This document shows, piece by piece, positions 12,763 to 52,489 of a stretch of 64,000 bases of DNA. The stretch comes from Isurus oxyrinchus. Its lineage: Eukaryota. Position numbers and translations under genes: made by a program. Positions within the stretch are counted from its first letter, which is position 1; each line of letters begins with the position of its first letter. The notes under the pieces were generated by a model, which made no database searches, had not been told where the DNA came from, and saw only the letters and a program-made list of their open reading frames with translations. Location of the stretch: positions 91,078,001 to 91,142,000 of the forward strand of contig JANJGN010000021.1 of NCBI GenBank assembly GCA_026770705.1, written 5' to 3'.

Positions 12763-12786
12763 TGGAGAAGATGAAACAAGTGAAAG
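12763..12786 (+). CDS. Microexon 3 (24 nt): VEKMKQVK
   Basis: tttatttttcgtttatcag|TGGAGAAG...GTGAAAG|gtaaca. Confidence 0.8.
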
Positions 12787-13399
12787 GTAACATACCTTGA
12801 ATATTTACATGTATCACAATATTTACTTGTATCTTGCTGTTTAATGTTAAAGGAATTTGAGTGACTTTGATTTAAAAGGCAAAATGCGAATTCTGGCAAC
12901 TCCTGAAATTAACGACATGATAGAAAATCTTTGGTGCAGAAGCCGAATTGTCTTATAGTTCTGTAGCAGCCATGTCTAACAATACCACCGAATATTTATT
13001 TCCTGAAACTTTGAGTAAACTGAAGCACATTTAAACATCAGTGGAAGCTAACGTTGTCTTAATGTCTTCCGAAGATTGACAGGGAATCTAGGAAATATAT
13101 TTGTCACGTGATAGAGGCACAAAAAACACGCGGATAAGTGAAGGTGCCGATAATACTAACAATAGCGTAACACTTAGGCAGAGATCATGGTGGGGCAACA
13201 GAAAAAACTTGCCAGCATTATGACCCTATTTAAAGAGGATTGTATTTATGGCAAAATTGCGCAGTTCAGTCTGGCAATCATGAAAAGTCCCTGATGTCCG
13301 TCCTAGCTTTAGTGTGAGCAGAGTACTTTTTAACACCATCTGGTATTAAACTTTCAGGGGAAGCCTTTAGGCTCACTTTAGTATAAGGCTGGCTTCTGG

Positions 13400-16300
13400 G
13401 ATAGAATCATAGAATGGCTACAGCTCTGAAGGAGACCATTCGACCCGTCGTAGCTGTGACAGCTCTCTGCAAGAGAAATTCGCCAGTGCCATTCCCAAAG
13501 CTTTCCCCTTATCCCTGCATTGTTTGACTAATCGAGACCATGCTAGCTCACTATAGAGCAATCTAATCACTCTCATTCCGCCACTCTAATCCGGTAATAA
13601 TGTTATTTTCCTCAAGTGCCCATCGAATGTACTCTTGATATCATTCATTATCTTTGTTCCCATCACCCTCCTGGCAACGAATTGCCACTCGCTGCATGAT
13701 AAAAGCTCTCACTTGCACCCCTTGCTCAAAAGGATACCTGGTAGTAGGAGCTTTTCTTTTCCTCCCAAATTCACAACTGTCATAATCATGAAAAACTCTA
13801 TCAAATCACCGTCCATCTATTTTGCTCCAAAGAGCTCCTCTGACGTCTAAAGCTAAAACCCATCATCACTGAAATCGATCTGATAAATCTATTTTGCAAC
13901 CGCTCAAGAACAATCACATCTTTTCTAAAGTGTACTTATCAGAACTAGACAAGATATTCCAGTTGTGGCATAACCAAAATTGTATAAAGGTTGAGCATAA
14001 ATCACCTACTTTTGTATGCAATGTCTCTAATTATGAAGCCTAAGCCCCCGCATACTCTGTTAACCAATCTCTCAATATGTCCTGCCACCTTAAAAAAGCT
14101 GCACATATTAACCCCAGGTACCTCTTCCTCGGTACACTCTTTACAACTGTGCCATTTAACCTTTCTTGCCACTGTATGCATTTACCAAAATGCATCAATT
14201 ACGCTTCTAAGTAATAAATTCCATTTGTCACTTGTATGACAATTCTGATTGCCTTTTTTGTCTTGCTGCAGCCCATGTGTATCATTTTCACTCTCTGCTA
14301 CACCTCCAAGTTTAGTATCATCAGCTAATCATGAACTTTTACACGGTATTCCAATACCCGAGTTACTTATGTAACTCCAAACTTCATCCTCCTTTCATCG
14401 GAAAATCACTGTCCACCATTTTCTCGTCTAAAAAACAAACATTTTCCAGCGTCGATGTTTTCTACCCTTGCACCATTTTTTCAAATCTGACTACGACACT
14501 CCAGCTTAGGTTCGTTAATGAGCCGTTTTATGTCGCACTTTGTTGGAGGCTTTCTCAAAATCCATACAGGAAAAAAGGATTGATATCCCTCATGAAACTT
14601 CTATATTACTTAATCAGAAAAGTCAATTAAATAACAGGCAGGTTCTATCTTTGATAAATTCGTGTTTCTCTCTACAATGCAATCTAACCTCTTCAAGCAC
14701 TGCTTAATCTTTTCCCTGATTATTCTTTTTTTCTAACATCCTAACTACAACTTATTTTCAGCTGACTCGCCTGTAGTTATAAGGAGTATCATTGACATTC
14801 ATTTTTTACGAAAGAGGAGTGTCATACTTGCTACTCTACAGTACTCTGTCCCCTTTCACGTAACTACGGAAGATTGGAATGCCGTGGCAAACCCTTTCGC
14901 TCTCTCCTCCCAACTTCCTGTCGAAGCCTAGCAGACAAGTGATCTGGACCAGGAGGCTTATCCACTTTAAGCATAGCAGATCTTTACAATACATTCTTCC
15001 TATGGATTTTCACCTGATCAATTACTTCTACCAGCCCCTCCCCTACCGATATTTGTTCAGTATCCCCTCCTTTAGTCAACACAGTTACAAAATACTCATT
15101 TGGCATTCAAGTCTTACCCTGATCCACTAAGTACACATGGGCCTCTTTGTCCGAATCACTTGTTACTACCCACTTACCATATACATACTAGTACAAGACT
15201 TTTCGATGCCCTTCAACATTATCTACCATTTTATGCGCATACATTTCTTTACTCCTTTCCTTTTCAGTTCCAGTCTTAAAATATCATATTTATCCCGGCT
15301 CTCGCTTAAGGGATTCTCTTGATAAAGCCATTCCATCATCACTTTCTGGCGCTGACATTGCACCATATTCTCTATCACCCTCGTCATCAAAGGCTGGCTT
15401 TGATTTCTTAACTTTCGCCTTGTTAAAATGTTACTAGCCTGCACTTCAAACATCTCTTTTAAGATAATCCGCTTCACTGTTACAGTTTTCGCTGTGAATC
15501 TTTGGTTCTATTTTCCACTGGCTGCATTTCTTCTCACCCTATTAAACTTAAAAATCTTCCAATTCCCCCTTTAGATTATTCTTTGTTCTTCACCATTGTT
15601 CATCTAAATATTATGATACAAATATCATTCCTGTAAAAGTGTTTTCCTACAGGTACTTGGTGCATTTGACCCAATTTCATTCCACAACAGCCAGAACGAA
15701 CAACGTCTCCTTCATAGTTGGACCGAGAACATACTTGTTAAAGTAGTGCTCCTGAACACATTTCGGATTTTCCCCTCCCTCCCCTTTACTCTAATGTTAT
15801 CATCATTGTCGTTTGGCTAAATAACGATCCCAAGAACCATATAGTTTTCTATGCCATTGCGCATTTCTGTGATTTCTTGGTTTATTTCCAGCTCTGTCTC
15901 TCACTATTTGGAGGCGATAATATAAAGCCTGTAGCATGATCATCCCCTCTATGTTTGCAAAATCTAACGAAATTTATTCTGTGTTTGCCCCCATAATGAC
16001 ACCATCTCTTTCCAGAAAAACAATTCCTGTCCTATTCAGTGCTGCAACATGAACTCCCTTTTTTCATTCACGATATGTTTTATTCTGCAGCCTTTGTATC
16101 CCTGAATGTTATGCGTCAGTTTTAAGTTACATTTTCATTATTGCCATTGCACAATATGCCCACACGATTATCTATGCATCGTATTCGCTACAGTTAAGGC
16201 CGTTACATATATGCATTGCACACCTGCCTTTCTATGCCTGGCATTCTTCTTAATCTCATCTTATGTAATACAGAACTAATTAATTTTCTACGACTATCCA
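13400..16300 (-). mobile_element. Decayed CR1 LINE fragments
   Basis: CR1-type 3' tail read in reverse (atagaatcatagaat..., ccattcgacccgtcg) and scattered ORF2-like remnants. Confidence 0.65.
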
Positions 16301-16844
16301 TCACTCTAAATCTTATGCGACTTAACTCTATTTTCCACTTCCATCTACTGACACCCATCGCCTTTCTCATTTACATTGAACTCTTGTCTGGGTGGCAAGA
16401 AACTCGTGGGACCTGCCTTGGTTATGTCTGCCCTTTAATGTGCTGTTTTTGGTGTGCTCGACCTCAGTTTACCTGTTAGTTCATGTTTAAGGCATGATAA
16501 TTGTTGATCTTAGAGCATATGATGGGCTTTGCTGATATTTGATTTGCTGACTTTTGAATAGCAAAAGCTCTTATGTTTGTTTAAATAACGTGGAACATTG
16601 TGACTTTATTCTCTTGATAACCAACTGGGATTTCAAATTCTGTCTACTTTAAACCAAAAATACTGACTGAATTTTGGTGCCTTGTCTTGAGTCGTAACTT
16701 GTTTAAGGCAGGCACAGCTGTGGTTCATCTCAATACCCTGAGCAACGCATTTTAATTTGAAGAAGTAGGTGCAGTTAAAGGGGGAGACTTTCAATTTGAG
16801 AACAAGTTCATTCATATACAGGAGGATAATGCTGGATGGAGACT

Positions 16845-17417
16845 GGAAGAAGTGGAGAGCATTCAGCCTGGTGTAGCAAGCGATAGAGGTGTGCAGAGAT
16901 TTGACAAGGATGTTGAAGAGGAGATTGTTGGGGCCAGAAAATTGAAAACTGTTAAGTTGGTGGTGCACATCGGAAATACATCAGAAAACCTGGGCAACGG
17001 GAGTAAGAATTGAGCCCCCTGTAAGAAAGAAAAAACAGCGAACAGAACAGGCTGAAACAATAGGTTAAGCAGGGCAGATCAATTTGTGGATCTTTGAAAG
17101 TGGGTGGGAACGAATTATTCTGGCTGGGCTGCTAAGGCATTGGAGACGGTAGAGGGAAGATCTCCAGAGAATATAAGTTCAGTGACTGCCCTGGAGACTA
17201 TAACTTGAAGTGCAGTAGCGGGGAGCAGTTTTGAGATAGCTCTGAGAGTTGGATTTCGGCCCCGTAAGGTTGAGAAAACAACCCTTAGTTTGTTTGCACC
17301 ACCAACTTAACAGTTTTCAATTTTCTGGCCCCAATAATCTCATCTTCAACAGCTTTGTCCAATCTCTGCACACCTCTATCACTCGGTACACCAGGCTGAA
17401 TGCTCTCCATTTCTTCC
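16845..17417. repeat. 123-bp inverted duplication (16845-16967 vs 17295-17417)
   Basis: The same peptide HHQLNSFQFSGPNNL...YTRLNALHFF appears on opposite strands in the ORF track; arms align as reverse complements. Confidence 0.92.
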
Positions 17418-19031: not shown

Positions 19032-19058
19032 ACTTACAGGGCAAATTTGAAAAGCTAG
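19032..19058 (+). CDS. Microexon 4 (27 nt): DLQGKFEKL
   Basis: ttgttgtttttttcag|ACTTACAG...AAGCTAG|gtatgg. Confidence 0.85.
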   Translation, partial: TYRANLKS

Positions 19059-19752
19059 GTATGGCTAAATTAAGTATCCTATTTAGAGTTGCTACAACAT
19101 AGCACATCGCTTGAGCACACTGCACTGAACAGGTGTAGGCTTCGATCAAAGATGAATTAGGTTAAAGATATAATGCCTTAAGATACATCGTAGAATTTCA
19201 CATGGGCAAATATTTTCCAAAAAATCACAACTTACGGAAGCTAGTATGAAGCCACGATTTACGAGGTGTATTCCCTTTTTGTCAACTGGCAATAAAGTTT
19301 TGTGCCGAGGGGAGAACGCCCATTATATGAGCCACCCAATTTCGTTGCAAGTGATTGGAATTTAAAAATATTTAGCTACATCGAAGGTTCTCATTGGATG
19401 TTGCACGTTTTGCATGGTATATCAGTAAATTTGTAGGGATGCTTCTCGATCTGAATAAACTAGCATGTGCTCTCCAAATAGCTAATTATAATGAGTTCCT
19501 TGCTGCTGTAAAATTTCTAGATGAAAAAGCCACGCAATACATGCGGTAAAAGATCCTTAATCTCTTCTTGGAGTAAGAATTTGCCTTGTCACCACCAGTG
19601 CCACTCAATTTAAATACGAACATAGGCCCTCAATTCTAAATACTGACACACATCCAAAACATTTTCTTGATTGCTTATAATAAATAGTGCATCCCAAGTG
19701 CATTACCTATATTTCTATTTAATGACCATTGTTTTTATTTTTTATTTTGCAG

Positions 19753-19779
19753 AAGCGCAATTAAACGACAAAGAAAGAG
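19753..19779 (+). CDS. Microexon 5 (27 nt): EAQLNDKER
   Basis: tttttattttgcag|AAGCGC...GAAAGAG|gtaaaa. Confidence 0.85.
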
Positions 19780-20039
19780 GTAAAATGCAGAATAATTATG
19801 TTTTCATTATTTGTTGCCATTAATTTTCACCTGTCCTTGCATTGCATTTATTCATTTAATAAGCCTGCATGATTCACTGGCACTTTCAATGCAGTTTTAT
19901 ACGATATCCAGGATAGAAATCTAAAGAAGAAACATCAATTATTGAACCCAAATTCCATCCACAACAAAGATTAATTTTAGCTACTGGTCTGTAATTGACT
20001 ATAATGGAAAACAAAGTTGCCAGTTAAGTATAACAGTCT

Positions 20040-20250
20040 TCATTCCGTTATCACTCCATATGCCTGTTCTTTCACTGTCGCTGGGTCAAAATCCTGGAAC
20101 TTGTTCCTAACAACACTGTAGATGTGCTTAAACTAGATGGATTGCAACGGCTCAAAACGGCAGCTGATCACCATTATCTCAAGGGCAAATAGACAGGGCA
20201 ACAAATGCTTCCCTTGCCAGCGACGCAGACATCACATGAAAGAATGGAAA
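20040..20250 (+). mobile_element. 3' fragment of the LINE family seen at 3810 and 34360
   Basis: ttcactgtcgctgggtcaaaatcctggaac...caccattatctcaagggcaa...caacaaatgct. Confidence 0.75.
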
Positions 20251-20437
20251 AGGCTTCTAATTTCCATATTATATTCCGACTTGAACTGTGAAAATTGTTT
20301 TTCTACTCTTGACCAATCATAAAATATTGAAGTGCAAATTGAATCTTTTGTTATACCAAAGCCGTTTCAACTTCAACCGTTAACAAAAAGTGAGCACGTT
20401 ATTGAAAAATTTAAATAAAACGAATTTCTATTTTCAG

Positions 20438-20461
20438 AACTGATCGAATCTCATGAAGCAG
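20438..20461 (+). CDS. Microexon 6 (24 nt): ELIESHEA
   Basis: atttctattttcag|AACTGA...GAAGCAG|gtaaca. Confidence 0.85.
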
Positions 20462-21489
20462 GTAACATTTGGAGCTTATATATGTGTCCGTTTTACGGTT
20501 CTGGAACAGCTGAAGTAATTGGACTAGGCGTTGCAGCTTAACTTCTGATTTTCTTGGAGGGGATGGTGTTACCTCATAATCCATGGGTTTAACGAAAAAT
20601 AACTATTTAGCGTTAGAAGCAGTTTTTTTTTAAAACAGCGCATGACAAGAAGGGCAACGCGTGTTGGGGCTCCAGGGTCCTCCTGCTCTGATTCTCAAAA
20701 GATTAATATCGATCATTCGAATACAATTCCCGAGGGTTGAGAAATGTCCCGGCAAATCGAAGAACTCTGAGGTCAGAATGGCAACCAGAGTGATTAATTG
20801 CAATTAACGAAGAAGCTTTCGTCGGAAGCATTGGCGCTTGAATGGCACGTGCTTTATCCAATTGTAGATGTCAAGTGGATTTGCGTGTTTTGAGACTTAT
20901 AGAGCCAGGAGTCGGACCTTGATTCGAGAGGTCAGCTGAGTTCATTCATTTCAACAGTTCAATAGTATAAGATTCTCTGTCGCTCTTTCTGGTAGAGGAG
21001 AATTCAAGAGTTATCCACTCCAGGCGGCTAATCAATCCATAATTCCCTGATGAACAATGATGAAATGTGTTCTTCGTGCCCGGTTTTTCTTGTTTCCTCC
21101 TCCTGCAAAAAGATAATGTATTTGTCTATCACGCCATTGCAATTATATTAAGTACCCTAGTGGAAGTAAGCACTTCCAAGAAACAAAGGAATAGAATTTT
21201 TAAGGGAAAACATGTAATAGTCCCAACGAAATGTAATGGTTGGAATGATAGCGTGCATGGCAATTTGAAGTAAACGAAAAGGAAAAGTCGCCCCGAAAGA
21301 ATTAGGCCGTAACACCCAACTGTAGTCGGAAAGTGGTATCTTGCAGGAATTAGTCGAAATAAATACATACTAAGCTACCCTTGAAAATTAGGCTGACATT
21401 TCAGTTCGCCAGAGCTGCTTGGGCCTGCATCGAAAGACTCCTCGCAAGCCCAGCGAAGTGCAGCACAGGAAAATCAATGAGGCCACGCC

Positions 21490-22260
21490 CCCTTTTTACA
21501 GCATGAGCTTCAGCTCGTTCATCACTCTTGGCTTTCTTAGCCTTCACCCGTGCTTATTGTTCCTCCTCATCTTCTGAGCCAAGGTTCTTTCTTACTGATG
21601 TCCTTCCGTTATGTTTTACTATCAGGGCTACCGCTCCTCCTTTTCCATCCTGTCTACCTTTTCGGAATGTTGCGGATGCTAAAATATTTACCCACCTAGG
21701 TGACTTTGTTACCGTTTCCCTGTAATGGTAAATAAATTTAATCAACTTCTTTATTTTATGTCGCTAGTTCATCTATTCTATTGCGAATGAATGCTTAGCT
21801 CATTCACATAAAGAGCCTTTTAGTTTAATTTTTAAAGCTATTATTTCCATGGACTTATGAGCTAATGCACTATACCTTTGCTCCCTTCCTGTATTTGCTT
21901 TACATTACCCAGATGCATTTGCCTCACAGGCCATTGCAATATCCCGATTTTTCTCTTTAGATTTCTAGATCTCACTTCGCTTGAGCTTTCCCTCGCGGCC
22001 TTTTAGTTTAAATCCCTATTCTCGACTCTATTTCGACGATTTTCCACGTTACTAATCCCAACGCAGTTTGAGCGGAGCCGATTACATTGGGCCAGCTCCC
22101 GCTTTCCTGAAAACTGATGCCTGTATGCCATGAATGACACCTCCTTCTTCGCACATCAAACTTTAAGCCACGTGATCAATTTCCTAATCCGATGCACCCA
22201 GTGCCAGTTGGCGCGTGGTTTAGGTTACAATCCAGAGATATTATCTCTGAGAATCAACGC
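21490..22260 (-). mobile_element. CR1 ORF1/endonuclease remnant
   Basis: ORF fragment FRKGRQDGKGGAVALIVK matches the CR1 endonuclease RRDR..GKGGGVAL motif. Confidence 0.75.
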
Positions 22261-22340
22261 TTTATTAATGCCAAGTCTGATTTGCTAAAATATAAACTTA
22301 ACGCATAGTATTTCCTGCAACGTTGTATTTCGTGTTACAG

Positions 22341-22367
22341 AATTCATCCTTCAAGCAAGCCAGAAAA
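22341..22367 (+). CDS. Microexon 7 (27 nt): EFILQASQK
   Basis: ttgtatttcgtgttacag|AATTCA...CAGAAAA|gtaaga; its inclusion preserves the heptad register. Confidence 0.75.
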
Positions 22368-22678
22368 GTAAGATCGTATTAATGTAATCGAAAAAACAGC
22401 AGCAGTGTTTGGACCTTCCGCTATACCAACAACTGTTTACGATCAGCTGGAGTTCACTTGTACTCTCAGCCATGTATTTCCGTCGAAGGCCGGCGGCAAA
22501 AGCAGATGGGGCCTGATTGGCCGACCACTGCCCAATTACATTTTGCTCTGAATTCAACTAGACATGTATTTAAATAATTTCCTAGTCGACTAAATTCAGT
22601 CCATGATGTCAGGTATAAATGTTGCCCTTATGTCTACTTTTGTCCTATGATCTCCCTATGTCCCTCAATCAACACCTA

Positions 22679-22805
22679 GGTCGGAATGTTATGGCCCCGT
22701 CGCGGTGGGGGCCCAGCCGTAAAATGCGGCGAGCAGTTCAAAACTCTATTGACTTTGGTGGGGACAGAAGGGCGCGCCGGCGGGAGGGGAGTAAAATTCC
22801 GCACC
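22679..22805. mobile_element. Short MITE-like element
   Basis: Imperfect terminal inverted repeats ggtcggaatgttatggcccc / ggggagtaaaattccgcacc, flanked by TA on both sides; CpG-rich relative to its flanks. Confidence 0.55.
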
Positions 22806-23825
22806 TAGTCTGAGTAGGTGGATTATCGCGCGCTTCAGTTTGCATTGTTCTTCTTTACTTCTGGTAAATGTTCAAAGCACACAACTGTACTTGGTTTGAC
22901 ATTAATTGAGAAACCTTATAGGTTAGCGTAAAGTAATTTTAAATTGAATTCTGCTATACCTGACATTTTTTTACAAATGAAAATCGAGAAACCCGAAGTA
23001 CTCAGCAGGTCTGGAAACTTCTGTGGGGCGGGAAACAGCTTCAGGTCCATAATGCGTCTTCAGAACGACGGATACCGTCATCTATATTTCACCAACCCAA
23101 GTTAAACGTCTACTCTCATTAGCATAGATATGCTCGTGCCATACGCCATAATCAATACCTAATGGATTTCCGAACTTGTGATTGCTAGAATGAGCATAAA
23201 AGGGTTGTGGCCTTGATAAGGGGCAGCGCAGCTATGCATACGAAACCATGCTCTGGGCTAGTGGTAATTTTATTTTAAATAAAATGTAGGATAAGTGGGG
23301 ATTCAGAACTTTGCTGAGAATGGACAATTTGTTAGGGTGCGATTCTATTCTGTTACCTTCGCATCCAGCTCACCTTCCGTATTCAATCGTCCTCGTGGAA
23401 AAATGGAAAAGTAATTGACTCTGTTCCAAGACTACATGTCAGTTTTCTACCCCAAGCTCCATAAAAAATGTACGAAGCTGGTGGAACGGCAGTGCTGGCA
23501 AAATAATTGAAAGGGGAATTGACGGCCAAATGTCAACAGCTGCCGAAGTCAGCCCTTTGACAATTAAGTTTCATGGTGCATATCAGGAAGACCAGAAATT
23601 AGAACGTTCTCCAGTGGCAGCTCAAACCACGATACTACACAGATTACCGGTTATATGGCCGACTGAATAGTCAGGTCAATTGGAGAGAATAGAGAAATGG
23701 CGTGGAAGGAGCTGCAAGTTCCGTGGCACAAGTATTGTACAAGACAAACTTCGGCATAGGTAAATCAACTTCAGTGGGGTGCAAATGTTCACTAGCGCAT
23801 TGGTCGTCCCATCTACACGCTACCC

Positions 23826-23892
23826 CTCTCCTCCCAACCACACCATTACCACCCCACCCCCCCCCCCCACCCCCACCACCCACCCACCCCAA
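23826..23892. repeat. C-rich low-complexity tract (G-rich on minus strand)
   Basis: Seen directly; a similar tract lies at 38740-38826. Confidence 0.85.
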
Positions 23893-25269
23893 ACCCAGCA
23901 CCGTGCCGCCCGATTTCCATTTCCTTGATATCCAATTGATAGAAAAATTGGGTGGTGTGTTCAGTTAACCTCAAATAGAGCATAGTTAATGTAGCACCAA
24001 CGCTGAAGTTGAATTCATCCCCGTGTTCTTGAAGCATGCATTGAGTGTGAGGCCAAAGACAGATCGATCGAAGTGAGAATACAAAGGGAGTTAAGGTGAT
24101 GAGTCAATAACGAGTAGGGGCTCTACTTACAGACAGGCGAATCTGCATTCGCTATCACGAGGATAGAAACCACCAGATGAGGAGCGAAAATACCATAACT
24201 CATCAGATGATCAAAATGTCAACTGTCTCTCAAAAGGACGGTGCTGCGCATGTTCATTCGCCACCCTGCAACTTGCAGTTACCCTTACAATGATACCTTG
24301 CGTTCTAAAAAAAGGAAGCCTAATACAACTCTCCCATGTAATTATAAGAAACAAAACATAATATTCTGGAAAACCCAGCCGGTCTGGCCGCTTCTGTCGA
24401 GAGAGAAACAGAGTTAACGTCTCCAGTCTGTATGACTCTTCTTCATATAATTTCCAGGTCAAAAAGCAATCCTTTTCGAGAAGGCAACCCCTCCGAGCCC
24501 GTAGTGGCTTTCCAGTACATCATTAGCATATCTACAAATTCTCAGCCTGACGTCCAGATAAAAACTCATAACACCAACTTCGCTACTTTTGAAATTGTCA
24601 TTTGATGAAGATGTCTGTAACGCTTCCGGCTCGACGCTTTAACCTCAAAATACTGTTAGTACTCTGACGAATTGCGTAATGTTTCAGAGCTTCACATACA
24701 AAGCTTCAAAATAATGCTTCATGTAGTTTGAAAATTTACTTCCGCATCGTTATGATCTAAGTGTCCCCTCACCTTCAAATCGATCTCAGTCTTACACCTG
24801 GTCCCCAGGTATTCCATGTTTCTCCTATTCCCCATACATTGCATTTTCCCTAAGGTATCAATAGCTTAATTCTCAACTTATCTGTTCTCTTAGCAGATGT
24901 TAACTAACTGTCCATTTTCATGGGTGTTATTTTTAATTTATTCATCTCCAGAATCTTCAATATTTTATATTTTATCACCAAGACCAGTTATTAATGTCGA
25001 CTTTATGTTCCGAATCCGTGTTACATTTAAGTGGCATTGCAGTGGGTAAACCATTCAAACACGTTTATAGCAACATTACAGTTGATATATATTTTGCTAA
25101 CATGCTTACATAGAACTTATTTCAAAGAAGTAGCCATAGAACTTATTTCAGAGAGGTAGCTCCAGCGTGTATTTTCTTTACGTCAAGAGAGTTTTGATTG
25201 TAATTTCTACAAAGAAGATTGATGCTATTCTTCCTGATTGTAGTCAGTGTTATGTTTAATTTATTTCAG

Positions 25270-25296
25270 AGCTCCAGAAAACCATTAGAGACACAG
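25270..25296 (+). CDS. Microexon 8 (27 nt): KLQKTIRDT
   Basis: tttaatttatttcag|AGCTCC...GACACAG|gtatgt. Confidence 0.85.
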
Positions 25297-26978
25297 GTAT
25301 GTAAAAGGACAAATATTTGATGTCTATGTCTTGAAACTGTTTCCCGCAAAATTGCATCAATTTCATTTCACGGGCCAATTACAGCCCATAAAATAAAGCA
25401 AAAGGTAATATAGAGCGTTTGTATGTACTGTCCTTCAGCTTACCATTGTGATTTCCTGTTGAGTCAATCCTTCTATTTCATTTTGTTGTTTTTCAATTAC
25501 ATTGATTCTTTTTGTTCCTCATTTTGATATTTCATAGGCACAGGTTTTAATGTGATTATGGCTTTACTTCACTGATCATAATTCCGTTTTAGAAACCCAC
25601 TGCTTTCTAAATTGTTTTTCCTCACCAGCTATGGAACAAATTAGCTAATGCATACATTTGAACTGGTCTTATTAAACAGTATCTGCGATGTGCAGGCAGC
25701 TCATTGTATGTGGAGTGAGTTACTTTTCCTCTCTTCTATGTGTTATCATTTTACACAAAGGCACACTTACTCCTGTGATGTTCTTGATGCACCTAGTCAG
25801 TCGAGTTCATTGCCCCTTTAGCATTTCTTACTGTTCGGCACTGCATGGGCTGTAATGTGATTTCTGTGAGTTGATTTCTTAACGCGTCTGATGGCAGGTG
25901 TGTGAGATCTGTCGTTTGATATTGGAAACATGAATTATTCCAAAGTAGTTTCATTTTAATTTATCCCGGACATTGTCCATTTTGTCACACCGCTACTTCT
26001 ATACAGGCGTAACATCAGTTGCTTTCTACAACTTCTATGATCCTCCACTGACTGCTTGACATGTTATTTTTCAAGCTCATCATCCAAGGTTGCCTGCTTT
26101 CTCCGTTGATACCTCTTCTATACTGAATTGAAGACGATGAGTCAAGAGAGCAGAGATCCTGTAATCTGCAGGAGAAATAGAAAAATCACATATGAACGTA
26201 CATGACTGTTTTTGGCACTTAATCTCAGTGCGATATGTTCCTCTTATCACAAGGGAAACCCAATAAATTATCTAACGCAAGCAACCTCGTTCTCAAATAT
26301 TTGTTCTATGTTGACATTCTAGTTTGTACTTGGGAACTAAAATTAAGTTTTCCTAAATAAAAAGATAAAACGTGTGCAATGTTGAAAGTTCACGAAATCG
26401 AGAGACAAATAGAGGCGCGGTGTTACAAATAAAATACTTCCTATTAACATTTGTCGACAGGTAACGTTTACCATGTTAAGATCAGCACATGACTGAAGAA
26501 CCACTGCCTCGGAGTTTTGTGTTGCTTTGTTTATTTTTTTCATCTGAAGGCAGAATGGAATTCAGAAATAAATGTTATTATAATCAATCCAAACTTCCAT
26601 TGGATGGTAGTTATGATGCTATCTATGGAATGTAAAGAAATTAATGCACCTACTCCGGAAAAAATATACAAGATACAATGACGGAATTTCTTTACCAGTT
26701 AACACCATGGCATTTTGCGACATATAATGTGCAGGAATTTCCAGAACTATAGGTCTCTAGCAGGGGTTGTCACATAACGACGCACTTGTCAAAAACCTGG
26801 AGCACACTTAATCGAAAATGTCTTCCATTATCATTAAGACAAGAGAAATTGCAAGTCATGCAGAGGCAATAAAAAAATCAGACGGCCCTGAAAAAAAATC
26901 CACGAAGGACAGAATGCAAAGGTTGTAACTTTAGGAATGATTATACTTAATGATTATACTTGTCGGATTTTATTTCAG

Positions 26979-27005
26979 GTGTAGATTTGCAATCGAAAGA
27001 AAATG
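26979..27005 (+). CDS. Microexon 9 (27 nt): GVDLQSKEN
   Basis: gattttatttcag|GTGTAG...GAAAATG|gtagga; same L-x-x-K-E-x pattern as exons 5 and 11. Confidence 0.8.
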
Positions 27006-27096
27006 GTAGGAACCTTTCCCGATTTTGGCATAGTAATAACTGTGAATTTATCAACGCTGACTTTACTACAGGGCAAATCTGACAGCAAATTCTGGA

Positions 27097-31474: not shown

Positions 31475-31510
31475 AACTCAAGGCTTTGAGCAGCATTCTA
31501 CAAAAAACAG
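31475..31510 (+). CDS. Microexon 10 (36 nt): ELKALSSILQKT
   Basis: ttttgatgtccgttccag|AACTCA...AAAACAG|gtgact. Confidence 0.78.
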
Positions 31511-33681: not shown

Positions 33682-33708
33682 AAGCACTTTTGGCTGAAAG
33701 AGAGAAAG
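33682..33708 (+). CDS. Microexon 11 (27 nt): EALLAEREK
   Basis: cctatctttttcag|AAGCAC...AGAGAAAG|gtaaac. Confidence 0.85.
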
Positions 33709-33813
33709 GTAAACGCGTTTAATCGTGTAGATTCTATTTCTTCCACAAAATTTTAATATATGTTGGAGTGACTTTCTATGAAGAATATCCTAATTTTTTT
33801 TAATTAACTTTAG

Positions 33814-33840
33814 AGTTGGATGCGAAGTGTAATCCCGACA
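33814..33840 (+). CDS. Microexon 12 (27 nt): ELDAKCNPD
   Basis: tttttttaattaactttag|AGTTGG...CCCGACA|gtgagt. Confidence 0.8.
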
Positions 33841-38108: not shown

Positions 38109-38489
38109 ACCTGATACACATTTTCATCTATTTATTCAACGTTCCAGTACCCATTTTCAGTTTGATCTGAAACGTCTATCTCACCAAACATGTTGGTAAA
38201 CTTTTATCATAGCCCTGCGAAGACTTCTGTGCAGTGGAACTAGTGAATCGTATATTGCTACTCAAAAGTCAGCGGCTTGTTTCAAGAATGTCGGGAAACG
38301 ACACGGCCTTAGCTTCCAAGTCCTGGCTTTGATTATGCAGGTCAAAAGAATACCTACAGCTGTCCTCCTAACTTCAACCTCCAACTGTTCATTTGCACCT
38401 TCCACACGAATGTTCTTCTTGCAGCTATTGCTGCCCCTCCACCGTCCGCTCCCTGTTAAATAAAAAAAGACTTTGAAGAAATGCTGAAG

Positions 38490-38715
38490 GAAGAGGGTGA
38501 CAGCATGTCGAAGCTTTTCGCCTTGCAACCATCAAGGCAGAACAGAAAGAATACCAAACCTTAAAGCGACAATTAGCATTGCATAAGAAGTGGGTTCTGG
38601 CTTGTTGGCAAGTGGGCTATGATTGGTAGAAGCCTTGCCATGGAGACCGGACCGGGGAGCAGTTAACACCATTAACGCTAAGTTCTTTTGCTAAAAATGG
38701 AACCAGGCAAGTCGG
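38490..38715 (-). mobile_element. Penelope-like terminal-repeat fragment
   Basis: gacagcatgtcgaagcttttcgccttgca... and gattggtagaagccttgccatggaga match the repeat at 32260-32410. Confidence 0.6.
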
Positions 38716-38953
38716 GTTTGATTTGTCAAGCCGCCCCGGCATCCTCCACCGCCACCCCGCCCCACCCCCCCCCCCCCACCCCCCCACCACAACTCCCCCG
38801 CCGCCCCCCCACCCCCACCCACCCAAAGCACCAAATTTTTGTTTAGTTGAAAAAGACACAAACGCAACAATGAATTTAATTTGCATGCTGCTTTTTCAGT
38901 TGTTTTCGTGGGATATGTGCCAGTCATAACCACTTAATTTATTTATTTTGCAG

Positions 38954-38980
38954 ATGAGAGAATAGTCGAATTGAGAGCGG
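38954..38980 (+). CDS. Microexon 13 (27 nt): NERIVELRA
   Basis: tttatttattttgcag|ATGAGA...AGAGCGG|gtaagt; consensus donor. Confidence 0.88.
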
Positions 38981-39085
38981 GTAAGTATTTCAAGTGTTTC
39001 AAATGGGTTTTATTCAATTACCCTTGATTGCAGATTGTAGATTCCAACTGGGGTGATTAAATAACGTGTTATTTTTGATTCGCAG

Positions 39086-39112
39086 AAATCAGGCAACTGC
39101 GTGCATCCGCAA
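39086..39112 (+). CDS. Microexon 14 (27 nt): EIRQLRASA
   Basis: ttatttttgattcgcag|AAATCA...TCCGCAA|gtcagt. Confidence 0.75.
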
Positions 39113-40149
39113 GTCAGTTTTAAATATTTACGTTGCTGATAGAGTTGGACATTAACGTTATTGGTGTAGAACATTTACTTTCAGTAGAAATGAAAATACA
39201 GTGGTTCTTAGATCTAACAGCCTATGGACAGCAACATGGCTCCAAAGGGCTGTTGCGCGCCATTGCTGCATTTCTGCTCCGCCTGTAATATTTTCGTTGA
39301 GTACAGCATGTGATGCTTATGCCTAATTTTTATTTTTTTCATCCACAACTTTGCAGAAAGCAGGCTCTAGTGCATTCGGTACCCGTTTTTTAAGAACACG
39401 AGTTCTCCATATTCATTGCCAATTGCAAAAAAAAAGATCACATGGGCCGAGCTGCAGCGCGTTTCCGTTCATTTTCCAACTAGCTATAGTAAAATCTCAC
39501 ATAGTCATATGTCTATTAATTTTACTTTAGTGCGTGTATGTTCAGCATGCAACTGTTAAGCTTTCCAGACATAAACCAAATATATAACAATGTCACCCAT
39601 GGCGTACTGTAAATTTGATTCGTATATCCAAATGCACGTGGAAATGCATCACGAATGATAGTGTAAGAGCTAGGGCATTATGCAAACCTGTTAATAGCTA
39701 TGCTGTTTCCACTTTTATAGCATCCAGTTACAGGATAGTCTATTGATCCACACGTTTCATGAAGTACAACCCTTCTATCATCGAAATCTCAGCACTATAG
39801 CGTGAAATCTCCCAAGATTTAAAACTTAACGTGAAATTGAATGGAGGGCGTGGAGGTGGCTCTCCATTTTTACTTTAGAAGTCATAAAAGGGACAGAGAA
39901 ATTATAAAATGTAAATTACTTTGTGGTGGGCTGTGTGACGAGGGTTCCTATAAACGTAAACTGTTCTGCTAATCTCCAGATTTTTCTTCTGTAAGTGCTA
40001 TACATTCCCCACCATCAAGACTACCAACCCAAGCTGACACACGCACATGCACCCACACACACATGCACACACATACACACAGAAACAAACAAATACACTT
40101 TAAAGAAGTTCAAGCCAGGCGGCCCCTCAGCCATTATCGCTACAGTAAT

Positions 40150-41439: not shown

Positions 41440-42600
41440 GCTTCAAACCTTGGAGTTCGGCATTCTGGGTGCAATTTGTGCACATTCCTAATGGTGTTGC
41501 ATTGGGAGTCTTCAACATTGATCCCGGGCCCCATGAAGTCCCATGGAATCAGATCAAACATGTGCAAGGAAAGCTCTTGCTGATTACTCTTGATTACACC
41601 TACGTTGAAAAGTAGGTGTGCCAACGTCTTTCAACATCTTTGTGGGAAATTATGTAAGGTAACATATGATGGATAGTCTACAGCGTGTAGTCATCGAAGT
41701 AAATAGCATAATAAGAGCTCGCCAAGATTGCAACATGTTCAATCTTCATGAAAAAGAAACTATATTTGAGTTTACCAATTTTGAGTGGTTGATTTGTCAG
41801 CATTCAGCAGCAAGAAAAGGAAATACAATATGCTGCTGCTTGTGGTTTCTGTAGATTTTCGGTTTTTAAGCACATTACCTACAACATCCGGGCAGCCAGC
41901 TCAGTTTGAAGGCTCTGAAGAAGCAAAGAGCCAATCTGCCACAACTCTGCGACATTAGCTCCATAAGCTCGATCAATTCTATAAACATCCTGTGGGTTAA
42001 CATTGGCCAGAAACCGAACAACACTAGCCACATAAATGCAATGTTTATGAGAGCTAGGAATTCTACAGCGGTCAGCTCACCTCCCGACTGCCCAAAGCCT
42101 GTCCACCACCTACAAGTTACAAGTCAGAAGTATGAAGGAATACCATCCACTTGCCTGGATGAATGCAGCTCCTACAATACTCCAGAAGCTCAGCACCATC
42201 CAGGACCAAGCCACCCGCTGGATTAACACACATTCCACGAACCTTCACTCCCTTCACTGCTACCGAACAGTGGCTGCAGTGTGTACCATCCACAAGACGC
42301 AGTGCAGCAACTCACCAAGGCTTCTTAGGCAGCAGCTTCCAAACAACAACCACTAAAATCGGAAGGAAAAGGGTAACAGACACATGGGGCCAGCACCAAC
42401 TCCAAGTCACTCACAATATATCGCCGTTCCTTCACTGCCGCTGGCACTCCCTCCCTAACAACTCCATTGGTGTGTGCCTACACCTCATCGACTGCAGCAG
42501 TTCAAGAAGGCACCTACCACCACCTTCTCAAAGTCAATTCGGATGGATAATAATGCTGGCCTAGCCAGCAACGCCCACATTCCAGGAATAAACTTAAAAA
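41440..42600 (+). mobile_element. Fragments of the LINE family seen at 34360
   Basis: IDPGPHEVPWNQIKHVQGKLLLIT (endonuclease) and MKEYHPLAWMNAAPTILQKLSTIQDQATRWI (post-RT), plus the shared 3' tail. Confidence 0.8.
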
Positions 42601-44295: not shown

Positions 44296-45059
44296 ACTTT
44301 TGAAGAATTACTGACGGATCGTCCAAATGTGAGACAATCCTTGCAGGATGGTAACACCTACAAGTTTTGTGACCAACTATTGGCTCAGTAGCTATGTCAG
44401 CCAAACCCAGAAAGCCCTGCGCAAGATATGGTCTACTGCATGCATCTCTCAGTTGTTCGGCACATCAAGGCACATGCAAGGTGTGCGGCATCAACAGGCA
44501 TTGGTAAACCAGTGTAAAAAGTCCAATACAGCAGCAGTGAGCAAACTTCATGATGAAACCCAAATAAGAGATAAGCAGATGCAAGCTTCCAGCAAGAGTA
44601 GAGTGTGCCCGGAATCATGAGGAATCTATCCATGAAGCAGCCAGCAGAATTAAAGAAGTGGACGATGGCAATAACTAAAATGAAGGGCATATTGCCTCAT
44701 AAAGTTGGAAAACATGTTATAGGGGCAAAGGTTGACATTTGAGCGTGTGCCAATATCCGCCCTATTAAAACCTAAATAACAGGTGTTAACAGAAATGGAA
44801 GACATCAGCAAAACCAACAACTGCGAAGCACAGTCGTTCAACAGAAGAGGTCCATAACACTGGAGTGCAGATATGGGCGTTACAACGGTCAGAGAGGCAG
44901 CTCGCCAGCACCTTCTCAAGGCCAAATGGGATCGGCAATAAATGCTGGCCCAGCCAGCGAAGCCCACATCCCATGAATAAATAAAGCAACTGAAAACAGC
45001 AAATTTAGCAACCGTACATTCGGTTCTTTCATTAATGTTATTAATATAGATTGTAAATA

Positions 45060-47760: not shown

Positions 47761-50700
47761 TCACTCTTGTCCCTGATCAAGGGGCAATACCACACTAAGC
47801 GCAACACTTCCTTCTCAGGAAGATCTGATGTTAGGCAGACAGGTGCAAATGACTCCACCCAGTCACTATCAACCCGCACTTCTAAAGATATTGGATAAAT
47901 TTCAGGAAAGACAGGGCATTATGAACGATGTTCACACAATGAGTATTTCGGGTCTGGAATGGGCTGCCTGGAAGTGTGGTGGAGGCAGGTTCAATCGAGG
48001 CATTCAAGAGGGCATTGGATGATTATCTGAATAGAATAAATGTGCAAGGGTACGGGGAAAAGGCAGTGCAATGGCACTAGGTCATAATGCTCATTTGGGG
48101 AGCCGGTGCAGACACAAAGGGCTGAATTGCCTCCCACTGTGCCGTTAAATTCTGTGATTATGTGGTGTTCATGACTTCTGTGCAGGCAAATAACTACCAA
48201 ACTTAATGGTTGGACAGAAAGTTGGTACTTTCCATCACACTGACGAAATGTGGAATCCAACCTAGGTAGCTAAAATATGTTTTGAGCCAAGATAAAATGA
48301 GGTTCTCCACAACAAATGTGATGCCGTTGAGTCGAATCAATGTCAAATCAGGGAAGCTCCTAGCCATGAAACAACAAGAAATCTCATTGCAAGCAGAGCA
48401 ATGTCAAAGAAAAGATCTAAGCATAACACTCCTACAGTTCGTTATTGTAACAATCAGCAGTCCCAAACTAAATAGACTAGACAAGCTGAGGCGTGTCAGC
48501 AGACAGCCAGTACGTTTTATAGACTCATAAGCTCACAAACATAGAAAGTTGTACATGCTTAAGGTAGAAACGTCTGTTGTTTTCTAAGTAGTTGGTGGTT
48601 GTTTATTGATACGGGGTAATTTTAGCCAGAAAAAAAATGTAGTTTGCACCTTTAAGTAGGTGTGTTATGATATCTGCACATCACTAGATAGGAAATGACG
48701 CAAGCCACCTCATGATAAGTAGTCTTCAGTATGTAGTCCGTGTTATCAAGATCTCCCCAAGATTGTACTTCTTCCTCCTGCGTTCGCTGCTTGAAGGCAG
48801 GTCTATGAATACTGACGACAAAGGCTCCAACTTTCTTTGAATCACATGGCTGACAAGGAATCTTCCCTATTGTTGCCATTTGCCATTCACATATTTTGGA
48901 AGGTTTACAGGTGATACCTCAACGTGAATGCACCTTTTTTGGCCATCAAGCCCTGGAGTGCGACTTAAGCCTGAAGGTTCAGGTACAAGTACAGCACTGA
49001 GATCTGCCTGACAATTTGGAAAATTTCCTGGGACTGCTCTGTTCGCAGAAAGCAGGGCATGTCCAGTCCGGTCAATTATCGTTTCAAGAGTTACTCTCGA
49101 TCATGATCAAACTGATGTCATGTGTCTTCGACACCAATAATCTGCTCACTGATACTGAGTTTAGGTTCCACCATGGCCACTCGGCTCCGGACCTCATCAC
49201 AACCTGGGTCAAAATATGAAAAAGGAGCTGGACTCAAGAGATGAAGCAATAGTGGCTGCCCTTAATATCAAGGCGCTATTTGATCAAGAGTGGCATCAAT
49301 GGTCATTGGCAAAACAGAAGTTAATGGGATTCAGTGAGAAAGTTCACTGTTTAGTCATATCTAGCAGAAAGGGAAATTGTTCTGGTTGTTTGAGGAGAAT
49401 CATCTTCATTCCAGAACATCGCCATAGGAATTCCACATAACAAGTCATCTTCAGATGCTACAACAATGCCCTCTCTTCCTAACAATACTGTCTGCTCCAG
49501 GTGGACTGCAGGGGTCCAAGAACGTGGGCCACTACCACCTTCTCAAACAAAAAGTCCATACCCAAGTCTCAACAAGTTATGTTAACCTATATTAAGGGTG
49601 AAAAGTGGTTGGTATTAAATACAACACACATTTCGGGCCCTATCCATTGCTGTTGCTGTCAGGGAAATCTGGTAAATGGCATAATAAACATTTCATTTAC
49701 TATTATTCGTTATTTGTACAGCAATAAGGAATAAAATGATGCCAGCTGCTTCGCACTCTCTCATTCTTTTGGAAAATATAATACACTGCAGTCTGCATAT
49801 GAAGTCTATACTCATGTCCCTTAGTTGTTTTGAGCACAAGTATCCTGAAACCTGTGCATTTTACATTCTAATTGAAGGACATTCATTCTGCCCGCTAGGT
49901 TAATGTGGCTGGGTCTGCGTAATTTCCTCCCAGTGTCCCACACTCAGTGTTGCTCTGTGTTTCTTCCGTGTCTTTTATGAGTTGGTTGGCTCCAATTCTT
50001 GCCTAAATAAGGAATCATAATGCTCTCTGTGAGGCAGGTTTACGAATGGGAGCTACCTCCATATTCTTCACCAACTTTCCATTATATGCTAAAGATAAAA
50101 ATGTCATTGCTTTTAGGATGGTTTCTGATTCAGCAATGATTAGGCATGATTGCGAAAGTGATGGACCATAAATAAGATCCCTTACAACTATGAGAATGTC
50201 CGAACCTTCTAAATGCTCTCTGTACCTTTTAACCACCAATCACGTACCAACTCGGTTTGCCAACTCAGACGTAGCACGGTTTCTGCCTCATTCCTGATTA
50301 AAATAACAATTGATACAATCCATGACACTTCTTTTTTGCTATCTGTCTGTGCCTGTTTCCTTCCCTTGGAAAAATAAAAGAAAAACGCTGATTATAAATT
50401 CGGAAGCAGATTTTACAAAGCCCTGCAGCTATTTCAGTATGAATGCTGTCAATCACAGACCATGAGGAAAGCTCTGGAATTTTCACTCAAGCACGAACAT
50501 ACTTGGCCAGAGAGTTAAGGGACAATGCAATGGGGAAGAGAGGCATGAGGTGCAAGACTGGGTAAAATGATGAATATGTATTATAGCTGCTTTCCTCGCT
50601 TCACTGAACTGAGCGTCGGTGATATCTACCTTTATTATTGCTTCAAGGTTCACTTGGGCAACTTCTCCTGCCGCATGATATGACCATCATTAGAGACTGT

Positions 50701-51431
50701 AGCTATTAAGAACAGAATAAGAATAAGAATAGAAGATAATGCTGATAATACAACTATAAGAAGTCTTTAAAATTAGGAAAGTTCCTTTCGAGTGGGCATG
50801 AAGAAACTGTTACAGCGATGGGTAAGTTTGATCAAGGGAACATAAACTAAGGTTTCAAATAATTAACATAGTAAGAATGTGTTGACGTGGAGAATGGTGA
50901 CAATGTAAAACTTGCTGACACATGCTGTCGCTGAAGCAGGTGCATGTGATAGCTTTAAGGGAGAGGGCAGTTGAGTTTCAGATGAAGGATAACAAAGTAG
51001 AACAATAGGGTCTAGTATGGTGGCTGACAATAGAGCGGGAAGAGACTGATTTGGTTGCAAACATTACGTGTGACCTATTTCTCTGTGGTATATTCCGTAT
51101 AACTGAGCGATTGTTTTGCTGTATTCACAATGTTCACAAACATTTCAATAGTTTTCATCAATATTTCTTCTTTTAAGAAAACAGGTTTTATAAACAATGC
51201 AGCTATTAGAAATATTCACGTTTAAATTGGTAGCAGTACGACAGAAAATAACATTGCTTCATATCCATGATAAGTTAAGGTAAATTCGAAACTTATTTCG
51301 GCTAGTCTTATTTATTTTGATTTTGAAATAAAGAATTTCTACACCAAGCAGTCAAATTTTCTTCATGAAAATTGTCATTAAAATAGAGTATTAATTATCA
51401 CTCACAGTTGATTCCACATTGATTTCTGCAG

Positions 51432-51455
51432 GAGGCTTTGTTGCAAAGGAGCAAG
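51432..51455 (+). CDS. Microexon 15 (24 nt): RGFVAKEQ
   Basis: cattgatttctgcag|GAGGCT...GAGCAAG|gtaaat. Confidence 0.8.
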
Positions 51456-52453
51456 GTAAATATATCACAATATATGTATGCAACCCTGTGTCAAATGTTA
51501 TTATTTCCATCTGTGGGTTTGTCAATGACACTGCCTGGACAATCAATAAACAAATGTTCGTCTATATACTCATGAAGGCGCAGAATTCAGACGCTTGCTC
51601 CACAGTGTCATCTAGAGGACTGATACCGCAGCTTCAGCATGGCAGCTGGTGTAGGTAAATTAGATGTAAAAATATTGATGTAGCAATTTTCAATGATAAA
51701 AGGTAGATGCCTCAATTTCACAAAATCTGAGGCCATAAAAATTCAGAACGGGAATCGAAATTTTGCATCAATGTAAAGTTTGGGCGATATAATTGTTTCG
51801 CTTGATATAGTTAGTGACAGACATAGTGGCCACTCCGACAATTTTCTTATCGACCATACTTTTGTTTTGCAACAAAAAGGGTTGATATGTTTAAACATCT
51901 TTTATGAATCATTTATATTATCATTGCCCTCGCCAACGCAAAGGTAGTGATCCTGAAAGTAACTGGAGCTTCGCATCGGAGCACAGAGATCCATATCTCT
52001 GCAACTTATTTGCCACATTTGCCTGTTGAAGTAGCTTGAATAGATGCCTCGTCATTACTTATCTCTCGTTTGACTGAGCCCCAAATAATTGATTTGAAAA
52101 GCTGGTTTTGTTCTTTGTTTCCACGGGAAATTACTAACTGGATATAACACTGTTCCTATCAGGGGCAAGAATAAATATCCCATGAATATATTTGGATGAT
52201 TTTCCTCAAAAAATGTGCATATTATTATACCCACTAAAGTAAAGGAATATAGTTTTCTTTACCAAATGGCTATATATTGCCGCGATTATATTGCCAGTAT
52301 TCGTTGCTAGACTGACGAGTTATGCTGTCCTGCTCGTTTTTTCTGTGAAAATATCCGATCACTAATTTGTAAAACGGAAAAGTGCTGCTTTTTAACTGCT
52401 ACATGGCAATTTTAACCCTGCTGTGGATAATTCATCTAGTGTTTCTCTTCCAG

Positions 52454-52489
52454 AATTAAACGAAACGACCAAATCTCTCAACGACTGCC
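52454..52489 (+). CDS. Microexon 16 (36 nt): ELNETTKSLNDC
   Basis: gtgtttctcttccag|AATTAA...GACTGCC|gtaagc. Confidence 0.83.

What the first reader, a model, noticed from the sequence alone, without database searches (positions are those of the whole stretch)
12763..52489. Non-heptad exon sizes that nevertheless sum to a continuous heptad register
Exons encode 8, 9, 11 or 12 aa, yet in the assembled peptide every seventh residue from 30 to 149 reads V,F,L,L,E,Q,I,L,L,L,L,L,D,L,L,F,L,L. The five exons starting with EL begin at residues 1, 50, 85, 106 and 141, with spacings 49, 35, 21 and 35, all multiples of 7. This independently supports the exon set as correct and complete across this span. 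It also implies that skipping a single exon keeps the frame but breaks the coil register, so only certain exon blocks (9+12, or 8+9+9+9) would be structurally neutral.
Basis: partly seen in the sequence, partly recalled or inferred. Interest (0 to 1): 0.75.

Follow-up and report, generated by a model that had tools for sequence, protein, structure and literature searches.

The report
Micro-exon gene spelling a leucine zipper
Seventeen or eighteen tiny exons scattered over 56 kb of vertebrate DNA join into one open frame whose leucines stay in step every seventh residue although no exon is seven residues long, which points to a real gene for a coiled-coil rod whose family and splicing pattern remain unproven.

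Summary
Fourteen phase-1 exons (24, 27 or 36 nt) in 12763-52489, plus exons at 2253, 3508 and 56469, join without a stop.

EL spacing restates the leucine column. The register cannot see missing 7n blocks, barely constrains exons 3-8, and one alternative exon set scores higher. Neutral blocks (14 of 105) are no commoner than chance, and skipping a 9-residue exon equals a +5 insertion that helices can absorb.

Best reading: the middle of a larger gene for a leucine-zipper-like rod, probably secreted (two R-x-K-R furin-type sites precede the coil). It resembles chicken BG/butyrophilin heptad tails in design and teleost secreted coiled-coil plus B30.2 proteins in layout, but homology tests were negative or inconclusive and no B30.2, Ig or membrane exon lies in the window. 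Isoform models of one such catfish gene lose 7n (5 of 19) or 7n+3 (14 of 19) rod residues. New variant of a known design; moderate interest.

The parts
2253..2285 (+). exon 1 of the window, 33 nt, 11 aa, residues 1-11; R-x-K-R furin-type motif, Pro; not coiled coil
   Evidence: (leave-one-out score 14.9)
3508..3543 (+). exon 2, 36 nt, 12 aa, residues 12-23; second R-x-K-R motif, Pro; probably a duplicate of exon 1 (inferred)
   Evidence: (score 14.3)
12763..12786 (+). exon 3, 24 nt, 8 aa, residues 24-31; start of coil
   Evidence: register support weak
19032..19058 (+). exon 4, 27 nt, 9 aa, residues 32-40
19753..19779 (+). exon 5, 27 nt, 9 aa, residues 41-49
20438..20461 (+). exon 6, 24 nt, 8 aa, residues 50-57
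   Evidence: missed by the strict generic scan, found; leave-one-out 14.1
22341..22367 (+). exon 7, 27 nt, 9 aa, residues 58-66; both its column positions are polar
25270..25296 (+). exon 8, 27 nt, 9 aa, residues 67-75
26979..27005 (+). exon 9, 27 nt, 9 aa, residues 76-84
   Evidence: 6.2; leave-one-out only 0.2; needed for register
31475..31510 (+). exon 10, 36 nt, 12 aa, residues 85-96
33682..33708 (+). exon 11, 27 nt, 9 aa, residues 97-105; followed by a 105-nt intron
33814..33840 (+). exon 12, 27 nt, 9 aa, residues 106-114; one Cys and the only Pro of the coil
   Evidence: weak generic score 2.5; leave-one-out 4.7; selected by register
38954..38980 (+). exon 13, 27 nt, 9 aa, residues 115-123; followed by a 105-nt intron
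39086..39112 (+). exon 14, 27 nt, 9 aa, residues 124-132
51432..51455 (+). exon 15, 24 nt, 8 aa, residues 133-140
52454..52489 (+). exon 16, 36 nt, 12 aa, residues 141-152; N-glycosylation sequon at 143, Cys at 152
58602..58616 (+). doubtful exon 18, 15 nt, 5 aa; poor acceptor, other donors 31-41 nt downstream
   Evidence: generic score 3.5, gene-specific score -4.0, pre-B30.2 motif test inconclusive

Best explanation
The window holds the middle of a larger vertebrate gene (5' and probably 3' ends outside it) built of symmetric phase-1 micro-exons. SHOWN: they join into an open frame of two short basic, Pro-containing exons followed by about 130 residues with a leucine every seventh position. 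INFERRED: (a) the register is kept by selection on the protein, with the rod grown by copying exon blocks whose sum is 7n (9+12, 8+9+9+9, a possible 56-residue six-exon unit), so single exons need not be 7n; (b) the chain forms a parallel leucine-zipper-like oligomer with a thin, one-column core and a soft spot at exons 6-7; (c) it works outside the cell: it is cut by furin-type convertases at the two R-x-K-R sites and acts as a stalk that oligomerises and spaces a C-terminal binding head, most likely B30.2/PRY-SPRY, as in the teleost si:ch211-14a17.10-type secreted rods. My odds: real coding exons 0.95; coiled coil in this register 0.9; secretory pathway 0.6; B30.2 head 0.4.
For: Strand asymmetry 14 vs 0; 15 of 17 exons score 7.3 or more under leave-one-out gene-specific splice models; open frame and register statistics. 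Block copying: 4 exon starts recur at +35 and 4 at +56 residues; identity at +56 is 16 of 73 (986 of 20,000 column-preserving shuffles); the junction motif L-x-x-[KR]-E-x-E-L occurs 3 times (0 of 500 column shuffles, motif chosen after the fact). Two of the three column misses (58, 114) sit on junction codons, which are hydrophobic in 2 of 30 cases against 32 of 107 inside exons, so splice signals explain much of the imperfection. Secretory hints: two R-x-K-R motifs (2,247 of 100,000 shuffles give two; the two exons may be one duplicated event), one sequon, two Cys. Layout analogue: a teleost family of long rods ending in B30.2; 29 of 78 entries start with a signal-like hydrophobic stretch and 13 of 78 have R-x-[KR]-R in the first 120 residues (many entries are isoforms of one gene or look 5'-truncated); among 284 B30.2 proteins the junction motif occurs twice or more in 34, all but one from this family.
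Against: No homology shown: best BLASTP E 0.047 among 379 B30.2 proteins; against column-preserving shuffles the family scores z -0.9 to 2.2 while unrelated controls reach 3.1; family HMM 11.2 bits, 98 of 400 shuffles as high, reversed peptide 11.0; exons 1, 2 and 1+2 match no better than shuffles (164, 138, 139 of 200). No cartilaginous-fish rod of this family was among the 120 rows shown in either search. No PRY-SPRY sequence in the window and no clear signal-peptide or membrane exon. The window's second column (0.28) is weaker than in five family rods (median 0.39-0.50). The two 105-nt introns are no more alike than shuffles (495 of 1,000), so block duplication has no DNA-level proof. Basic motifs could be a nuclear or juxtamembrane signal.
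Confidence: 0.5

Rival explanations
1. Cytoplasmic coiled-coil tail of a butyrophilin/BG-type type I membrane protein; the basic exons are juxtamembrane or linker segments, and the rod dimerises the receptor.
For: BG tails are built of split-codon (phase-1) 21-nt exons with a few of 18 or 24 nt; mammalian butyrophilins have a few heptads before B30.2 (PMC5938342 passages; PMC4046983 passages). Recalled, from no call: human ERMAP has a 33-nt basic exon and a 27-nt exon before B30.2, loosely like exons 1-2 and 18.
Against: 0 of 18 exons is 21 nt. BG heptads have two hydrophobic positions; here one. The seven shark, ray and bony-fish butyrophilin-like proteins displayed and those have short tails. 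The pre-B30.2 profile ranks the exon-18 reading 123rd of 5,193 and no GT lies at +27. A sequon and paired furin-type sites fit the lumen better.
Confidence: 0.2
2. Extracellular stalk of a type II membrane protein (C-type lectin of the CD23/CD209 kind, class A scavenger receptor, TNF/ectodysplasin-like or membrane collagen), shed by furin at the two basic sites and trimerising through the leucine zipper.
For: Order basic sites, coil, unknown head fits furin-shed type II proteins (recalled). Sequon and Cys. The top BLASTP hit (P0116, Amia calva; hydrophobic segment, coil, B30.2; E 0.04-0.09, z 2.6) shows type II-like layouts exist even with a B30.2 head.
Against: No lectin, collagen or TNF motif found in six frames; Pfam finds nothing in 17 exon-bearing stretches (low power at 27-38 aa). 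8-12-residue stalk exons are not what I recall for these families (CD23 uses 21-residue exons; recalled).
Confidence: 0.2
3. One reading: exon sizes were arranged as a splicing code in which only 7n blocks are skipped to tune rod length.
For: No exon ends in T, so no skip creates a stop. In the catfish analogue every rod deletion relative to isoform X1 is 21 residues or more, and 21-residue steps dominate.
Against: 7n blocks 14 of 105, chance 15. In the analogue 14 of 19 isoforms lose 7n+3 residues and 5 of 19 lose 7n; Ictalurus isoforms lose 20 and 45. Those are RefSeq models over near-identical repeats and the gene is not shown to be homologous. No isoform of the window gene has been seen.
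Confidence: 0.15
4. Chance assembly of cryptic splice sites, or a decayed gene.
For: Exons 6, 12 and 14 were chosen partly by fit; exon 9 has a leave-one-out score of 0.2 and exon 18 of -4.0.
Against: 14 vs 0 strand asymmetry, 0 stops in 165 codons, selection-corrected 7 of 3,742.
Confidence: 0.05

Closest known systems
Chicken BG genes (butyrophilin family), cytoplasmic heptad tail (PMC5938342, PMC4046983)
   Same: Coiled coil encoded by many split-codon micro-exons; true heptads straddle exon borders; junction codons avoid the core.
   Different: BG exons are almost all 21 nt, so any exon can be added or dropped in register; here none is 21 nt and register is kept only by sums. One hydrophobic column rather than two; introns up to 12 kb; furin-type sites; Ig and membrane exons not seen.
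Teleost si:ch211-14a17.10-type coiled-coil + B30.2 proteins (e.g. XP_053086105.1 Pangasianodon, XP_017313118.2 Ictalurus, KAK3511214.1 Hemibagrus)
   Same: Long leucine-rich rod with 21-residue units containing L-x-x-[KR]-E-x-E-L; signal-like N-terminus and, in cyprinids, an early R-x-R-R site; many length isoforms.
   Different: No sequence homology beyond generic coiled coil was shown; their exon structure was not available to me; their second heptad column is stronger; B30.2 head not in the window.
Furin-shed type II stalk proteins (CD23/FCER2, class A scavenger receptors, ectodysplasin, collagens XIII/XXIII/XXV); recalled, not fetched
   Same: Basic cleavage sites followed by an oligomerising coil.
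   Different: No head domain or membrane helix found in the window; exon sizes differ from what I recall.

Membership tests
Heptad coiled coil (leucine-zipper type) | 3.5-residue hydrophobic periodicity over several heptads | tested here: met
   Peak at 3.50-3.51; 15 of 18 in one column; 2 of 100,000 permutations
Heptad coiled coil (leucine-zipper type) | Both a and d positions mostly hydrophobic | tested here: not met
   Second column 5 of 19, third 4 of 19
Heptad coiled coil (leucine-zipper type) | Oligomer predicted or observed | not testable with these tools
   The structure tools take contiguous window sequence or stored proteins, not a spliced product
BG / butyrophilin | Tail built of phase-1 micro-exons | tested here: met
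   All 18 exons phase 1-1; BG split codons in PMC5938342
BG / butyrophilin | Exons mostly 21 nt (BG) | tested here: not met
   0 of 18
BG / butyrophilin | IgV (and IgC) plus membrane helix upstream | not testable with these tools
   None recognised in 1-2252; upstream DNA not held
BG / butyrophilin | Conserved pre-B30.2 exon | tested here: inconclusive
   Rank 123 of 5,193, no GT at +27
Teleost secreted coiled-coil + B30.2 family (si:ch211-14a17.10 type) | C-terminal PRY-SPRY domain | not testable with these tools
   Absent from the window; downstream DNA not held
Teleost secreted coiled-coil + B30.2 family (si:ch211-14a17.10 type) | Rod homologous beyond generic heptads | tested here: inconclusive
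   z -0.9 to 2.2 vs controls up to 3.1; HMM 98 of 400; repeat-unit HMM 21 of 500; low power across this distance
Teleost secreted coiled-coil + B30.2 family (si:ch211-14a17.10 type) | Signal peptide, no membrane anchor | not testable with these tools
   5' end outside the window
TRIM (RING, B-box, coiled coil, B30.2) | RING/B-box exons and large coiled-coil exons | tested here: not met
   No hit of 379 session proteins, mostly TRIMs, at tblastn E 1e-3; coil is in micro-exons
Type II lectin / scavenger / TNF / collagen stalk | Membrane helix upstream and family head domain downstream | not testable with these tools
   Recalled head motifs not found in six frames; both ends probably outside the window

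The most novel reading that the evidence does not exclude
This is a cartilaginous-fish member of an unstudied, ancient family of secreted, furin-processed leucine-zipper rods carrying a B30.2 head (normally a cytosolic domain) outside the cell. The rod is written in 8-, 9- and 12-residue exons that keep heptad register only in sums, so splicing sets both length (7n blocks) and supercoil breaks (stutter, stammer or beta-layer-type shifts) of an extracellular recognition molecule.
Probability: 0.15. Interest if true: 0.7.

Novelty: new variant of a known kind. Interest (0 to 1): 0.42.

Why it matters
Genes made of 24-36-nt exons across long introns escape annotation and short-read indexing, and heptad register is a cheap check on their order. 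The case also shows the check's limits: it cannot prove completeness. If cDNA confirms the model, the gene is a natural test of how exon boundaries and coiled-coil phase co-evolve (compensating 8/9/12 lengths, splice-constrained junction codons in the core), and of whether isoforms respect 7n. If it belongs with the teleost secreted B30.2 rods, it extends a family for which my one search on the zebrafish name found 4 papers, the two I read in passage naming it only in lists.

Tried and rejected
Expression: no RNA holder listed; three runs guessed to be RNA (X5, X8, X9) were laid on 19200-39199 and the listed pieces and joints fall in repeats, none joins the exons (tables were cut, and 24-36-nt exons are shorter than or close to the 31-letter words) - no evidence either way. 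X1 contigs cover exons 5-14 at depth about 20 with roughly 2.5-4% other letters; differences inside exons were mostly hidden (502 rows not shown; none of the 25 listed for 19200-20100 lies in exon 5, which is uninformative).
No whole genome is held, so neither end of the gene could be read. Single exons are too short for the large protein search; exon-plus-flank stretches found nothing in PDB (2 of 2) or Pfam (0 of 17). Rfam: 0 matches. B30.2 start pattern: 0 in viral contigs, 3 two-mismatch matches in the window against 7.5 expected.
Extra exon candidates: 44306-44350 (45 nt, would shift register by one, acceptor is a LINE tail) and 56358-56393 (strong acceptor, weak donor, removes L156 from the column) were left out; 47819-47842 and LINE-embedded candidates likewise. 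One search used two wrong exon coordinates and is superseded. Other periodicities (3.6, 3.67, 3.75, 4.5, 9) have power 0.1-0.3 against 2.0 at 3.5. Recalled ERMAP resemblance: not supported; ERMAP itself was not retrieved. Matches of exons 16+17 (0 of 200) and 4-6 (2 of 200) to the teleost family used plain shuffles that destroy heptads, so I do not count them. Atlas search of the catfish B30.2 region gave taxa only as Chordata. The organism was not identified: cartilaginous fish is my recall of the LINE tails plus earlier AI notes, untested. Place and sequence look-ups in earlier findings were empty.
Papers: PMC5938342 and PMC4046983 passages; PMC4786415 digest section and passages; PMC13466322 passages (not used); 10.1101/2020.09.29.317222 and PMC9995408 one passage each; all others search listings only. 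No supplement was opened; BG supplements hold exon-level detail that may bear on the comparison, and bioRxiv supplements are closed. Searches returned 0 papers; others returned none that by title describes this architecture; the library lacks most subscription journals.


Full report
1. The window. It is 41% GC vertebrate-type DNA with decayed LINEs (RVT_1 at 35097-35471 on the minus strand, E 1.4e-11; repeat pairs) and no long genuine ORF. No genome is held. I take it for a cartilaginous fish from recall of the LINE tails; that was not tested.

2. The exons. A generic splice-site scan blind to heptads gave 63 candidates of 12-60 nt on each strand. Open phase-1 exons of 24/27/33/36 nt scoring 6 or more number 14 on + and 0 on -. 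That scan listed 16 of the 18 exons used; 20438-20461 and 33814-33840 came from reading the sequence and a relaxed scan. Under leave-one-out gene-specific models 15 of 17 score 7.3 or more, exon 12 scores 4.7, exon 9 scores 0.2, and exon 18 scores -4.0. Joined, the 18 exons give 165 codons and no stop.

3. The register. Exon-order permutation: 2 of 100,000; residue shuffle: 0 of 100,000; spectral peak 3.50-3.51. Exon 17 extends the column to 16 of 19. The core is thin: the second column is 5 of 19, and exon 7 places two polar residues in the main one. Two of the three misses are junction codons, which are rarely hydrophobic (2 of 30 vs 32 of 107).

4. EL spacing follows from the column, since E is the split codon after a G-ending exon and L is a column residue; the two other exons with Leu second are off-column. 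Per-junction tests show firm support after exons 10-15, moderate after 6 and 9, weak after 5, 7, 8 and none after 3, 4, 16. Missing 7n blocks cannot be seen, and introns of 9.2, 6.2 and 12.3 kb leave room. Neutral blocks are 14 of 105, as chance predicts. By Hartmann et al. (PMC4786415, passages) insertions of 3 or 4 are common discontinuities, 1 or 5 are spread over two heptads, and 2 or 6 broke the helices into beta-layers in a trimer. Skipping a 9-residue exon (9 of the 14 exons in the span) equals +5, 9+8 equals +4, and 8 or 12 equal +6 or +2. So single skips are graded, not uniformly destructive. None creates a stop, as no exon ends in T.

5. How the register arose (inferred). Exons 5-10 and 11-16 each total 56 residues; 4 exon starts recur at +56 and 4 at +35; identity at +56 is borderline (986 of 20,000). 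A 9-residue exon ending in K/R-E-x followed by an EL exon recurs, and L-x-x-[KR]-E-x-E-L occurs three times. This fits growth by copying 7n blocks, then drift with compensating one-codon changes. The DNA keeps no trace: the two 105-nt introns are not alike.

6. Identity. Exons 1 and 2 each carry R-x-K-R; the coil has a sequon and two Cys. No B30.2, Ig, membrane or lectin exon was recognised in the window. Earlier AI notes on other genomes describe shark genes of 27/36-nt or 21-nt exons ending in B30.2; I used them as a lead only. I fetched B30.2 exons from metagenome contigs, searched cluster representatives and found a catfish rod-plus-B30.2 protein, then its family in catfishes, a characin, cyprinids and loaches. 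Of 78 family entries 29 begin with a signal-like stretch and 13 have an early R-x-[KR]-R. The layout fits, but homology was not shown, and no cartilaginous-fish rod of this type appeared in the 120 rows shown per search. Butyrophilin-like proteins of sharks and rays that did appear have short tails.

7. The splicing prediction in the analogue. Relative to isoform X1 of the Pangasianodon gene, 5 of 19 RefSeq isoforms lose 21 or 42 rod residues and 14 of 19 lose 24, 45, 66, 87 or 108; Ictalurus isoforms lose 20 and 45 in the rod (X16 was not held as its own entry). Steps of 21 dominate, but 7n+3 is the majority, so 'only 7n' fails there. These are gene models over near-identical repeats in a gene of unproven relation.

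8. Comparison. BG tails use 21-nt split-codon exons with two hydrophobic positions (PMC5938342 passages; PMC4046983 passages). The window gene works like such a micro-exon rod but fails the 21-nt test. It cannot be filed as BG, butyrophilin, TRIM or the teleost family on present evidence.

9. Verdict. A real feature and good evidence for a hidden micro-exon gene; the completeness and splicing claims are not established. New variant of a known design; interest 0.42.

Noticed in passing
P0180 / XP_053086105.1 and relatives: Teleost family of long coiled-coil rods ending in a divergent B30.2 domain, many with a signal-like N-terminus and, in cyprinids, an R-x-R-R site; named myosin-, golgin- or EEA1-like by annotation; about 20 length isoforms in one catfish gene. 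A secreted B30.2 protein would be unusual; 4 papers in the library hold the zebrafish name.
   Followed up: partly
window 44306-44350 (+): 45-nt frame-keeping candidate that also starts with EL and has the same donor hexamer as exons 3 and 6; its acceptor is a LINE tail and it would shift the register by one.
   Followed up: partly
window 56358-56393 (+): Strongest unused acceptor (9.7) opening a 36-nt basic frame with a weak donor, 75 nt before exon 17; could be an alternative or terminal exon.
   Followed up: partly
window 58602-58642 (+): Open reading past the 15-nt donor resembles the segment before B30.2 domains (top 2.4% of 5,193 acceptor-led 9-mers) and ends in a stop after 13 codons; no donor at +27.
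   Followed up: yes
window 33709-33813 and 38981-39085: Two introns of exactly 105 nt between consecutive exon pairs, no more alike than shuffles.
   Followed up: yes
window 16845-16967 / 17295-17417 and 31944-32014 / 33064-33134: Inverted repeats, 123 nt at 93% and 71 nt at 96%, 327 and 1,049 nt apart; the second pair looks like the ends of a non-autonomous DNA element.
   Followed up: no
window 36925-37096 / 37937-38108: 172-nt direct repeat, 90% identical, 1,012 nt apart, next to a LINE copy.
   Followed up: no
window about 3800-5900, 34350-37300 (-) and 41500-42560 (+): Decayed copies of one LINE family (RVT_1 hit at 35097-35471); present at very high depth in all four runs laid on the 34350-37300 copy.
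   Followed up: partly
P0116 (MBN3300211.1, Amia calva): Protein with a hydrophobic segment near residue 85-100, a repetitive coil with sequons and a B30.2 domain: a type II membrane-like B30.2 layout.
   Followed up: no
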